A DNA stretch of 64,000 nucleotides from contig NC_135803.1 of NCBI RefSeq assembly GCF_964213995.1, positions 83,762,001-83,826,000 on the forward strand. Direction: 5' to 3'. Source of the DNA: Mustelus asterias (taxonomy: Eukaryota). The notes beneath the pieces are model-generated. The model worked only from the letters and a program-made list of their open reading frames with translations. It did no database searches and was not told the DNA's origin. Below are positions 49,126 through 52,924 of this stretch, one piece after another (positions within the stretch are counted from its first letter, which is position 1; the number at the start of each line of letters is the position of its first letter). The translations under genes and the position numbers were made by a program.

Positions 49126-50942
49126 CTTGCTGCTCCCTTCGTTTTCCTCAGCTAATCTTATCCCTATCCCTTCCTCTCCTTCCAACTCCTTCAGTGGGGA
49201 ATATTCCGTGTATTCTGCACCTCACTGTTCACAACCTCCATTCACATTCAAACAAAATGCATGTTTCTGGTGCATTTTGGACATGGAAGCCTGGTCAGCT
49301 TTACCATGGTCTTCCTCAAGTGCTGAGGCTAATGTTGTCTCTCCTTGTCCTTGTCTTTCTTCCTTAACCCTGAGTGATTAACACAACACTAGATTGATCC
49401 TGGGATCCTCCTGGTTTGAGCAGCTCAGCTAATCACTTGATGAGTCCATGGAGTAAAGGATCTTGGTTTATGCCATTGGTTTCAGCCAGTGTCAGCACAA
49501 TATGGTGCAATGTGATCTTTGATTTTACAATGCGTGCTGAAGGTGGGTTCTGTACCTCACCTCCAGTCTGGTCTGAGGAAACGTTGACCACTGCATCACT
49601 GATGGGTTTCAGCAATCAGGCTGTTGAAGGCAAAAGGCCCATCTCCCCAGTAACCAGTGAGCAAGATGGAACTATTACTAAAGATACCCTAATATAAAAG
49701 CAACATACTGCAGATGCTGGAATCTGAAACAAAAACAGAAAATGCTGGAACATCTCAACAGGTCATCCTGACTCAAAAATATAGCTCTCTCACAGATGTT
49801 GTCAGACCTGCTGAGTTTTCCAGTATTTTCTATTTTTATCAAAGACACCCTCATAGCTTTAAGTATAATGTTATCAAATAGTAGCCTCCCCTTCCCTTCC
49901 TGCGATTCCCTACCACTCCACTCCACTCTCAAAGGTACTCCAATTGGTAAATTCCTCAGGGTTTAGTTCAGTTGTACAAAGACAGTGAACAGCTTCAGGA
50001 GCTGAGGGCTAAACAAGCTGCTCTTGGCACAGGAACACTTATCCCCTGTGATAATAAAGGCAGTTTAAATTCCAAGCATACCTCAGGTGATTCTGGCTGT
50101 TGTGTCCCTCCCTCTGCCAATCCTCAAGCACCACTAATTTGCTCTTAAATAACATGGGCAGAATTAATGGACAGGTTAAGTTTATGCAGCATTATTAACA
50201 CGCCACTCACATGTACTGTATCATAAGCAGACATGTTTGCTCTTGCCCTTGCTAACGTGTCCTTGTGGTAAGGTCAGGAGGGGAGGCTGAGAGCAGGCGC
50301 TATTCACTGGCTGATTGGAATCTTTCGAAAGCTTCCAATCTCCTGAGAGCTGTGTTTGAGCCTGTGGCTGCTGCACTTTCCAAAACAAACAGCAAAGCAG
50401 ATATAATGCAACATCGAAAACAGACAACCCATTCTGCTCAAAAGGCTGACTGTTAAATTAAATGGCTAGGAATCTATCACATCTTTTGTTGGTTAATTTA
50501 GCACAAAAATCAATAATGTGTGGAGCTAATTGGTTACTGGTTAGTTATGAAAAACAGATATGAATGGCACTTTGACCATGCAATGAGCCTGATTTTACCA
50601 TTTTGAGTCTAAGTGCCGAATCTGGGCGTCAAATAGACCCGAGCCTGGAATCCTCTTTCCAGCGCGCCCATACGTGTTTTGCCGGCTCTGGTCCGATTCG
50701 CGCTGTGGGCGGGGCTTAGCGCTGCCGGAACAATCGGAGCTCTGAACTGTGCATGCGCAGTTTGAAAATAAAATCCGAAGCAGCGCGTCCGAGCGGGGAG
50801 AAAAAAGCAGAGAGAGCAGCTCTCTGACCCAGATCATCTGGGAGCGGGGGGGCGGGGGAGGAGGAGAGGAGGCGGGACCCAGATCACCCTCCTGGGGGGG
50901 GGGGGGGGGGGGGGGGGGTGGAAGGAGGAGAGGGGATGTGAC

Positions 50943-51275
50943 GGGTCCATCTGGCTCATCAAGTCAGTTACAATACTGCGTTCAGCATCTACTGAACCAT
51001 CTTGGATACAAAGGATAATGACATTAGGTTTTGCATGTAAGCCTTGCTTATGCTAAAAATTATATCCTTGGTGTCGGCAGCCATTCCTGGTGTTACGGTT
51101 CTGATAACACCAGGAAGATCGACCAGTACCATTCATTATCCTTTGTATCCAAGATGGTTCAGTAGATGCTGAATGCAGTATTGTAACTGACTTGGTGAGC
51201 CAGATGGACCCACAAGGCAGAAGGGCCATCTTTGTGTTGACCAAAGTGGATCTAGCTGAGGAACATACAGCTTAT
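50943..51275. pseudogene. OPA1: Processed, inverted/duplicated OPA1 GTPase-domain fragment
   Basis: Minus 51132-50943: [35 protein letters not shown]/(1-nt deletion)/[28 protein letters not shown]. Plus 51135-51263: [43 protein letters not shown]. Both match the vertebrate OPA1 G3 (DLPG) to G4 (TKVD) region. Confidence 0.93.
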
Positions 51276-51329
51276 CTTGCTAACGGAAGGATGGTGGAGG
51301 GAGACCAGCGATCGAGGTAGGTTGGGGGT

Positions 51330-51705
51330 GCGCTCTGCCAGGGGGGGTCTGATCCCGGGGGGGCCTGCCTCCCAGGGGGGTCCGATCCTGGGGGGGGGGG
51401 GGGGGTCTGCCGAGGGGCCTGCCTCCCAGGGGGGTCTGATCCCGGGGGGGGGGGGGGGGGGGTCAGTCGGGGGAGCCTGCCTCCCAGGGGGGTTTGATCC
51501 CGGGGGGGGGGGCGGTGTCTGCCGGGGGGGCCTGCCTCCCAGGGGGGTCTGATCCCGGGGGGGGGGGGGGGTCTGCCGGGGTGGTTAGCGGGGGGGTCCG
51601 ATCCCGAGGGGGGGGGGCGGTGTCTGCCGGGGGGGGCTGCCTCCCAGGGGGGTCTGATCCCGGGGGGGGGGGGGCGGTCTGCCGGGGTGGTTAGCGGGGG
51701 GGTCC
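51330..51705. repeat. G-rich tandem repeat (GGGGTCTGATCCCGGGG...CCTGCCTCCCA units) inside the transposon
   Basis: Visible repeated units with long G runs. Confidence 0.85.
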
Positions 51706-52924
51706 GCGAAGGATGGTCGAGGAGGATGGTGACTTCACAAGGGCAGAGAGGGCTTTGGAGGTTCCCCTGCAGAATAAAAATCTGCTTCCGACTTTTATTC
51801 TGCAGGTCGCTAAAAGCGCGGATTCGGAACGGGCCAGAAGACGGTAAAGTGGGATTTGGCGGTAGAGTTGGGCGCGCGGTTCATTAAGTTGATTTAAATG
51901 CATGCTAATGCATTTAAATCGTCAGGCCGCCCGATTCGGGAAATCGAGTGTTGGTAAAGCCGCGATCTGCTCGGAATCGGGTGCAGATCACGGTATAGGC
52001 CCAACGCCCAACTTTACCGTGATTTCGCGCCCAAAAACGGGCAGGAGGTTTTGGTAAAATCGGGCCCAATGTTACTGTCTGAATGCGTGCAGATCCTTTC
52101 TGCTGAACTAGGTATAAGCTGGAGGGGGGCATTTTGATTTTTCTAAAAAGATTCCTGGGTCAGATATTTGTAATGACATGGATGTCAGACGTTTGAGTCT
52201 CACAGCCTCACCTAGGCTTTGCCCAATGGCACAGGTCATTAATACACTGCCAAGTGTGGAGTTAACTGCCCTCAGCCAGAGGCACCAGTAAGACTTGTAC
52301 AATCAATGTCAGTACCTCTGAGCTAGGGAAGACTCCAGACCTCATGGCTGTGCAGTCACTGCTGTTGGAATGTGTCTGTGTGCTGGGATATAGGCTGCGG
52401 GGGATAATGTCCTACTTATGATGCATTCCTCACTGTGTTGAATTCCTTGCTCACTCCTCCCTCAGCTTCGCTCACTCCTCCTGTACTCCTCATTCCTTGC
52501 TCATTTCTCACATTGATGCATTCCTGGTTCAGATAAGCCTGCTGGCACTCACAGTCTAGATGTGTAAGCGACCCTGTATCAGGAATGGAAAGCAGCAATT
52601 TAAAAAGAGCGAGATCTGTTTCAGATTTATTGGGTGGTGCTATGTTTAATTTGAATTGTACATTTAAAGGTGGTAAATGTTTATATAGGTTTTTCGGTTT
52701 TTCTCTTCCTTTTGAGTGTGTACTGACAGGTGACTGTAGCAGCACAGCTAATGCCAGTGTTTGTCTGAACAATCATTGTTCCGCCTGGATGAATGATGCA
52801 GACAGCCTGAGCTCCAACCCCACCATGGCAGTTTGGAAATATGAATTCAGTTTAATATATCGGGAAATTAAAAGCTTGGATCAGTAAAAGTGGCAATGAA
52901 GCTGTCAGATTGTGGCAAAAATTC

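What the first reader, a model, noticed from the sequence alone, without database searches (positions are those of the whole stretch)
50585..52067. Host-gene fragment inside a TIR DNA transposon (possible Pack-type capture)
Seen: the OPA1 piece lies between 16-bp imperfect TIRs with a 3-bp AAT duplication, next to a long poly-G run; no target-site duplication or polyA borders the OPA1 piece itself. Known: Pack-MULE/Pack-TIR elements carry gene fragments, usually genomic ones. Inference: either a mobile Harbinger-like element is spreading an mRNA-derived OPA1 hairpin, or the cDNA patched a break in this single copy.
Basis: partly seen in the sequence, partly recalled or inferred. Interest (0 to 1): 0.75.

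Follow-up and report, generated by a model that had tools for sequence, protein, structure and literature searches.

The report
Shark transposon family amplifying captured mRNAs
This is one of at least 373 copies of a cut-and-paste DNA transposon carrying an intron-free, folded-back piece of the host OPA1 gene; sister lineages carry spliced RPL39 and MRPL55, so this likely shark transposon family has repeatedly taken up mRNA-derived DNA, likely while repairing breaks, and spread it across the genome.

Summary
Confirmed, and larger than reported. Window 50585-52067 is a non-autonomous PIF/Harbinger element (16-bp TIRs, 3-bp TSD) in an intron of an angiomotin-family gene. Transposase-coding elements share its TIRs. 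The OPA1 cargo is spliced: a 3.7-kb progenitor joins 17 host exons and skips 62 kb of introns. The same fold-back junction occurs 373 times exactly, and 51 of 63 copies have their own TSD, so the one-off insertion reading is refuted. The window copy is a short deletion derivative that keeps a 79-bp stem. Long copies decay nearly neutrally, and their arms share mutations at ten times the between-copy rate. Sister lineages carry spliced RPL39 (1,189 motif hits) and MRPL55 (130 matches) plus an unidentified insert; 27 of 77 sampled elements carry cargo. RPL39 exists in linear and hairpin forms, so fold-backs likely arise later in DNA. The OPA1 insert has no poly(A), no TSD and no free retrocopy, so uptake at a break is likely but not shown. 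Closest precedent: bat Helitrons carrying retrogenes. Expression is untested.

The parts
50582..50584 (+). left target-site duplication (AAT)
   Evidence: an exact 3-bp duplication in 51 of 63 OPA1-bearing copies with both TIRs
50585..50600 (+). left TIR (family motif GGGCCYGATTTTACCA, one mismatch here)
50601..50835 (+). left subterminal arm of the element
   Evidence: 96% to the family majority; 4,264 first-look candidates, 40 scored
50826..50942 (+). GC-rich variable repeat of the element, with the G25 run at 50894-50918
50943..51133 (-). spliced OPA1 cDNA, antisense arm, about human residues 394-457; joins three host exons across introns of 561 and 1,418 bp (junctions near 51100 and 51000); one-base deletion private to this copy
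51134..51263 (+). spliced OPA1 cDNA, sense arm, residues 432-474; spans one exon junction (after 51153); starts at the fold-back junction shared by the family
50943..51211 (.). hairpin: 79-bp arms, 97% complementary, 111-nt spacer
   Evidence: folded as RNA -182.9 kcal/mol, z -23, 0 of 200 shuffles as stable
51256..51285 (+). remnant of a later OPA1 exon (end of the progenitor's sense arm), joined by a deletion at a 5-bp microhomology
   Evidence: 29 of 29 identical to the host exon; deletion present in 25 of 30 sampled copies
51286..51335 (+). inner right arm, homologous to the interior of transposase-coding Harbinger elements
   Evidence: 90-92% over about 70 bp to L211-L214 and L217
51316..51725 (+). 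GC-rich minisatellite (about 55-bp unit) of variable length
51708..52051 (+). right subterminal arm
   Evidence: 4,829 first-look candidates, 40 scored; 68-80% to transposase-coding elements
52052..52067 (-). right TIR
52068..52070 (+). right target-site duplication (AAT)
43911..58747 (+). context: angiomotin-family coding stretches at 43911-44240 and 58274-58747 flank the element, which is therefore intronic
   Evidence: Pfam Angiomotin_C, E 2.9e-4 and 1.9e-21

Best explanation
The element is a non-autonomous PIF/Harbinger transposon carrying spliced OPA1 sequence, amplified to hundreds of copies, and the cDNA likely entered one founder element during repair of an internal break and was likely folded back later by a DNA template switch. 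Step 1 (shown): OPA1 mRNA was reverse-transcribed, since the introns are precisely absent; the enzyme is inferred to be a LINE reverse transcriptase or a repair polymerase. Step 2 (inferred, about 0.55): the cDNA replaced part of a founder's interior through 1-2-bp microhomologies, without poly(A) or TSD. Step 3 (inferred, about 0.7): a fold-back made a 1.1-kb inverted duplication, giving the 3.7-kb form. Step 4 (shown by TSDs and copy number; trans-mobilisation inferred): a Harbinger transposase with the same TIRs moved it. Step 5 (shown): two deletions gave the short form seen in the window, which became the majority. The cargo is a decaying passenger with no sign of protein function. The same family did this independently with RPL39, MRPL55 and an unidentified sequence.
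For: Spliced: the L068 antisense arm matches 17 host segments bounded by splice sites; 16 introns, 62,424 bp, are absent. Multicopy: 40 of 40 scored hits are full length at 96-100%, from 616 candidates; 373 exact junction matches, control 0. Transposed: 51 of 63 have an exact 3-bp TSD and a palindromic target preference. Partner: DDE_Tnp_4 loci carry the same TIR; L214, L219, L220 and L222 show both TIRs with a 3-bp TSD; transposase ORF E 4.5e-40. No free retrocopy: the upstream coding region hits only host exons (4 matches of 12 candidates) and the 3' UTR only the gene (1 of 1). Junction microhomologies are 1, 2 and 5 bp. Late fold-back: RPL39 occurs as linear and hairpin forms, and the third cargo as linear (L098, L129, L137) and palindromic (L095) forms. 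The two OPA1 arms differ at only 2 of 1,142 majority positions and share five amino-acid changes absent from both the host gene and another shark's OPA1. Decay: pN/pS 0.81 and 0.71, with 33 and 16 stop codons. MRPL55 cargo skips a 6-kb intron and ends 15 nt after an ATTAAA signal in the element's own A-tract, without TSD.
Against: No linear OPA1 precursor was seen among the 23 long copies examined. Arm-to-arm conversion could itself erase arm differences, so the late fold-back is not proven for OPA1. Missing poly(A) and TSD could come from deletions before amplification. No Myb/SANT partner protein scored in Pfam. The transposase-coding elements examined are only 66-80% identical to the OPA1 element's outer arms, so the exact mobiliser was not found. 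pN/pS is somewhat below 1 and was not corrected for mutation bias.
Confidence: 0.8

Rival explanations
1. An ordinary LINE-mediated retrocopy (poly(A), TSD) inserted into the element, as in bat Helitrons; later deletions removed the hallmarks before amplification.
For: LINE reverse transcriptase ORFs are present in this window. The family deletes internally very often. MRPL55 cargo ends at a likely polyadenylation site in an A-tract.
Against: Neither junction set examined base by base shows a TSD (OPA1; MRPL55). OPA1 ends 10 nt after its stop codon with an identical junction in 9 long copies. Element sequence is replaced rather than interrupted.
Confidence: 0.3
2. The element copied a pre-existing processed pseudogene elsewhere in the genome by DNA template switching (gap filling or FoSTeST), so capture was DNA-based and the source has since been lost.
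For: Short microhomologies at the junctions match those reported for Pack-TIR gap filling (PMC8277862). The cargo had about 1.2% non-synonymous divergence from the host before amplification, which time as a pseudogene would give.
Against: No free-standing OPA1 retrocopy was found with either flanking probe. Of 27 loci with the intact RPL39 exon junction motif, one is the host gene and 26 show a family TIR nearby. All three identified cargos are spliced, whereas DNA capture should mostly take intronic or intergenic DNA.
Confidence: 0.15
3. The OPA1 hairpin was made during reverse transcription (the first-strand cDNA snapped back and primed its own second strand), not later in DNA.
For: The OPA1 loop lies on the mRNA 5' side, the geometry snap-back priming gives. 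No linear OPA1 copy was found.
Against: The RPL39 loop lies on the 3' side and has a linear precursor lineage. Both OPA1 arms share cargo-specific changes.
Confidence: 0.25
4. One-off insertion into this single copy.
For: None found.
Against: 373 exact junction matches on many contigs; distinct flanks and TSDs.
Confidence: 0.01

Closest known systems
Bat Helitrons amplifying retrogenes (Thomas et al. 2014, PMC4224331; passages read)
   Same: A DNA transposon of a vertebrate carries intron-free mRNA copies, including a ribosomal-protein mRNA (RPLP0), and amplifies them.
   Different: Rolling-circle, not TIR cut-and-paste. The four nested cases total 118 copies and keep poly(A) and TSDs. Here there is no TSD at the OPA1 or MRPL55 junctions, copy numbers are hundreds to about a thousand per cargo, and cargos become fold-back hairpins.
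Animal Pack-TIRs, including Drosophila Ssk-FB4 (Tan et al. 2021, PMC8277862; passages and part 2 of 10 read)
   Same: A TIR element with internal host sequence and microhomology junctions, amplified by further transposition.
   Different: Only 4 (1.4%) were multicopy, with a few copies each, and median cargo was 224 bp of genomic DNA. The survey explicitly discarded intronless copies of multi-exon genes, the class found here. 'Harbinger', 'shark' and 'cDNA' do not occur in its main text; its supplements were not read.
Maize Pack-PIF elements (Gisby and Catoni 2022, PMC8903248; passages read)
   Same: Same superfamily, non-autonomous, multicopy families carrying gene fragments.
   Different: Plant elements whose capture is explained by mobilising DNA between neighbouring insertions; the main text has no occurrence of 'cDNA', 'intron' or 'reverse transcri'.
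Fish PIF/Harbinger transposons (PMC9179366; passages read)
   Same: DDE transposase, TIRs and 3-bp TSD.
   Different: The TIR here is 16 bp against the 25-50 bp stated as usual. That study found no Harbinger in elephant shark, while this genome has 10,689 first-look transposase candidates, 150 scored.

Membership tests
PIF/Harbinger (non-autonomous) | Terminal inverted repeats | tested here: met
   16-bp TIRs, 14 of 16 matching in this copy
PIF/Harbinger (non-autonomous) | 3-bp target-site duplication | tested here: met
   51 of 63 copies exact, none with 4 or 5 bp
PIF/Harbinger (non-autonomous) | Related elements with the same TIRs encode a DDE_Tnp_4 transposase | tested here: met
   (L212, L214, L215)
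PIF/Harbinger (non-autonomous) | Partner encodes a Myb/SANT-like protein | tested here: inconclusive
   No Myb family hit among 99 ORFs scanned. A frameshifted Myb-like motif is visible by eye on the opposite strand in L215 and the stretch recurs in L216, L218, L219, L221, L222; the motif resemblance is recalled, not scored.
Pack-TIR / Pack-TYPE element | Host-gene sequence between TIRs, no transposase | tested here: met
   no transposase match in the window
Pack-TIR / Pack-TYPE element | Moved with its cargo (several loci, distinct TSDs) | tested here: met
Pack-TIR / Pack-TYPE element | Cargo is genomic DNA (introns kept), as the Pack-TIR survey defined it | tested here: not met
   16 introns absent; that survey discarded such cases. 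It works like a Pack element but falls outside that definition.
LINE-mediated processed pseudogene | Introns precisely removed | tested here: met
LINE-mediated processed pseudogene | Poly(A) tail and flanking TSD | tested here: not met
   OPA1 ends 10 nt after the stop codon, no duplication
Hairpin endo-siRNA locus | Transcribed and diced into small RNAs that act on the parent gene | not testable with these tools
   Only the fold was computed; no RNA data were examined.

The most novel reading that the evidence does not exclude
A vertebrate Harbinger family acts as a serial mRNA trap: breaks in the element are filled from host mRNAs, the cargo is folded into hairpins that outnumber their linear parents, and hundreds to a thousand dispersed, partly intronic hairpins yield small RNAs against essential genes (OPA1, RPL39), while intact RPL39 and MRPL55 frames offer retrogene raw material.
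Probability: 0.15. Interest if true: 0.9.

Novelty: new variant of a known kind. Interest (0 to 1): 0.72.

Why it matters
Gene capture by cut-and-paste transposons in animals is described as rare, mostly single-copy and DNA-templated, and the main survey excluded intron-free cargo. Here one family took up at least three spliced mRNAs and multiplied them to well over a thousand loci; about a third of sampled elements carry cargo. The surviving intermediates (linear, hairpin, deleted, chimeric) give a natural series for testing how mRNA-derived DNA enters a DNA transposon and how fold-backs form and convert. Practically, hundreds of 96-97% identical OPA1 fragments would confound annotation, read mapping and expression or copy-number analysis of OPA1, RPL39 and MRPL55 in these sharks.

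Tried and rejected
Expression: no RNA holder was listed, which is no evidence either way; RNA-like runs were not examined. Third cargo: no convincing Pfam hit and only unnamed or weak atlas hits; unidentified. Myb/SANT: no Pfam hit. The MRPL55 5' exon was not found in 10 kb upstream of the host exons, and the last RPL39 exon is not in the fetched host stretch, so RPL39 splicing is shown for intron 1 (about 1.7 kb) and the exon 2 end only. Poly-G as a poly(A) analogue: rejected, it belongs to the element's repeat. Segmental duplication: rejected, flanks differ. Other 3-bp-TSD superfamilies (Zator, CACTA; recalled): dropped once Harbinger transposases with the same TIR were found. Protein function of the OPA1 cargo: rejected. 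Earlier scan findings: none returned. A first exon boundary was mis-set and corrected; the junction read-outs used do not depend on it. PMC11872487 (passages) and PMC13317346 (passages) added nothing.

Full report
Observation. The window is G000:C3:83,762,001-83,826,000 in a 3.68-Gb genome. It is likely a shark: the best cargo protein hits are shark OPA1 at 91-93%, and several holding runs are labelled shark metagenome. The element spans 50585-52067, with 16-bp TIRs matching at 14 of 16 positions and AAT duplicated on both sides. It lies between angiomotin-family coding stretches. The interior holds OPA1 residues about 394-457 in antisense and 432-474 in sense, a 79-bp stem, and a 29-bp piece of a much later OPA1 exon.

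It is a family, not a one-off. All 40 scored of 616 candidates match the OPA1 piece over essentially its full length at 96-100%. The 16-mer across the fold-back junction occurs 184 + 189 = 373 times, control 0; this is a lower bound. Of 63 distinct OPA1-bearing copies with both TIRs, 51 have an exact 3-bp duplication, with a palindromic target preference like ACAC-WWW-GTGT. One copy sits in an intron of OPA1 itself. Contigs of four runs from two studies, labelled as four organisms, cover the stretch. One contig bridges the internal deletion junction (X3) and one the OPA1/right-arm junction (X1) by the tool's 31-letter rule; others fall just short. One of these organisms may be the window's own species.

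Superfamily. The exact TIR occurs 14,763 times. Of 30 top DDE_Tnp_4 loci fetched (150 scored of 10,689 candidates), many show this TIR or the family's arms. Among 12 extended loci, L214, L219, L220 and L222 have both TIRs and a 3-bp duplication. Transposase ORFs score E 7e-38 to 7e-41. About 70 bp next to the cargo is 90-92% identical to the interior of L211-L214 and L217. No Myb/SANT domain scored in 99 ORFs; a frameshifted look-alike is visible by eye only. PIF/Harbinger membership is met on TIR, TSD and transposase, and inconclusive on Myb (definition from PMC9179366, passages).

The cargo is spliced mRNA. A Pfam search for the OPA1 C-terminus gave 120 matches (117 of 157 candidates scored), many contiguous and in inverted pairs. 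All 20 such loci fetched lie within this element's arms, one with only a partial arm. L068 is a 3,692-bp progenitor: left arm, antisense OPA1 from 10 nt past the stop back to residue 394, then sense OPA1 from 432 to about 810, then right arm. The host gene is at C3:37.26-37.33 Mb. The antisense arm matches 17 host segments bounded by splice sites; 16 introns totalling 62,424 bp are absent. The window copy keeps two exon junctions in one arm and one in the other. In the first 30 junction loci, 25 have the short form's right deletion, 4 are long and 1 is truncated.

How it got in (inferred). The junctions show 1 bp (fold-back), 2 bp (cDNA to right arm) and 5 bp (later deletion) of microhomology, no poly(A) and no duplication. 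No free OPA1 retrocopy was found (4 matches of 12 candidates, all host exons; 1 of 1). This favours filling of a break in a founder element with cDNA. It does not exclude an ordinary retro-insertion later trimmed, or a lost source retrocopy. RNA-templated break repair is reported in human cells (PMC12065846; listing and start of abstract only).

Other cargos. I sampled TIR matches in the first 23.7 Mb of C1 (about 90 of the 14,763). The script listed 79 entries, 77 distinct after merging two pairs. Nineteen carry RPL39-lineage sequence (14 with coding sequence, 5 with only the hairpin core), 5 an unidentified insert, 2 MRPL55 and 1 OPA1: 27 of 77. The sample is from one region and biased to copies with a perfect TIR. 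MRPL55 gives 130 matches among 140 candidates. Its host gene has a 6-kb intron that the cargo lacks, and the cargo ends 15 nt after ATTAAA in the element's A-tract with no duplication. An RPL39 cargo-specific 16-mer occurs 1,189 times, some elements counting twice, control 2. Of 27 loci with the intact exon-junction motif, one is the host gene and 26 are elements: 24 linear and 2 already folded back. The cargo skips RPL39 intron 1. One element combines OPA1 with the unidentified insert.

The hairpin. RPL39 and the third cargo each exist in linear and palindromic forms, so fold-back can follow capture. For OPA1 the two arms differ at 2 of 1,142 majority positions and share five amino-acid changes absent from both the host and P0001, which fits a later DNA-level duplication. 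Against this, no linear OPA1 copy was seen, the loop geometry also fits cDNA snap-back, and the arms convert each other. Excluding CpG sites, 50 mutations are shared within copies in 7,476 sites (6.7 per kb) against 0.66 per kb between copies (13 of 23 long copies had overlapping arms).

Function. Long copies differ from their majority by 1-3%, with pN/pS 0.81 and 0.71 and 49 stop codons: a decaying passenger. The short hairpin is very stable if transcribed (z -23) and 97% identical to OPA1, so small-RNA production is possible, but no RNA data were examined.

Comparison and novelty. Bat Helitrons amplify retrogenes, with poly(A) and TSD, 118 copies in four nested cases (PMC4224331, passages). 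Animal Pack-TIRs are 1.4% multicopy, and intronless cases were discarded (PMC8277862, passages and part 2 of 10; supplements not read). Pack-PIFs are known in maize (PMC8903248, passages). Searches for this case found no description: (0 papers) and listings. The library lacks most subscription papers, and Repbase and Dfam could not be searched. Verdict: a real, new variant of a known kind, a Harbinger family that repeatedly packs spliced mRNAs and amplifies them, often as hairpins. Interest 0.72.

Noticed in passing
G000:C3:37,294,840-37,295,995 (in L123/L124): A short OPA1-carrying copy has inserted into an intron of the OPA1 gene itself.
   Followed up: partly
L261 (G000:C3 about 83,828,700): A second short OPA1 copy lies about 15 kb from the window copy, just outside the window, on the opposite strand.
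   Followed up: partly
L076/L233 (G000:C1 about 119.875 Mb): Chimeric element carrying both the long OPA1 arm and the unidentified third cargo, suggesting template switching between family members.
   Followed up: partly
L098:1821-2360; L129, L137, L095, L170: Unidentified AT-rich cargo of about 540 bp, linear in some copies and a 760-bp palindrome in L095; no Pfam or atlas identification.
   Followed up: partly
L280:1797-3609 and relatives: Linear RPL39 elements hold a full-length reading frame followed by about 650 bp of AT-rich sequence of unknown origin, either 3' UTR or a further cargo.
   Followed up: no
L253-L256, L263-L266: Many MRPL55 copies keep a 143-aa open frame; their right interior shows what look like remnants of the RPL39 5' end, hinting at sequential capture (seen by eye).
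   Followed up: no
L181-L184, L201 (small contigs C96, C140, C471, C111): Near-identical (97-99%) Harbinger copies with open transposase frames of 411-435 aa; either young insertions or a tandem/duplicated region.
   Followed up: no
L214:5976-6200: A transposase-coding element has a short stretch in its left arm that resembles the third cargo by eye; it was not listed by the BLAST.
   Followed up: no
L067:5794-7980: A 728-aa hAT-type transposase ORF directly abuts the left TIR of a long OPA1 copy.
   Followed up: no
window 30269-31096, 35569-35961, 43911-44240, 58274-58747; 45734-47080, 61933-62847: Probable exons of an angiomotin-family gene (only the last two scored in Pfam), and LINE reverse-transcriptase ORFs in its introns.
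   Followed up: partly
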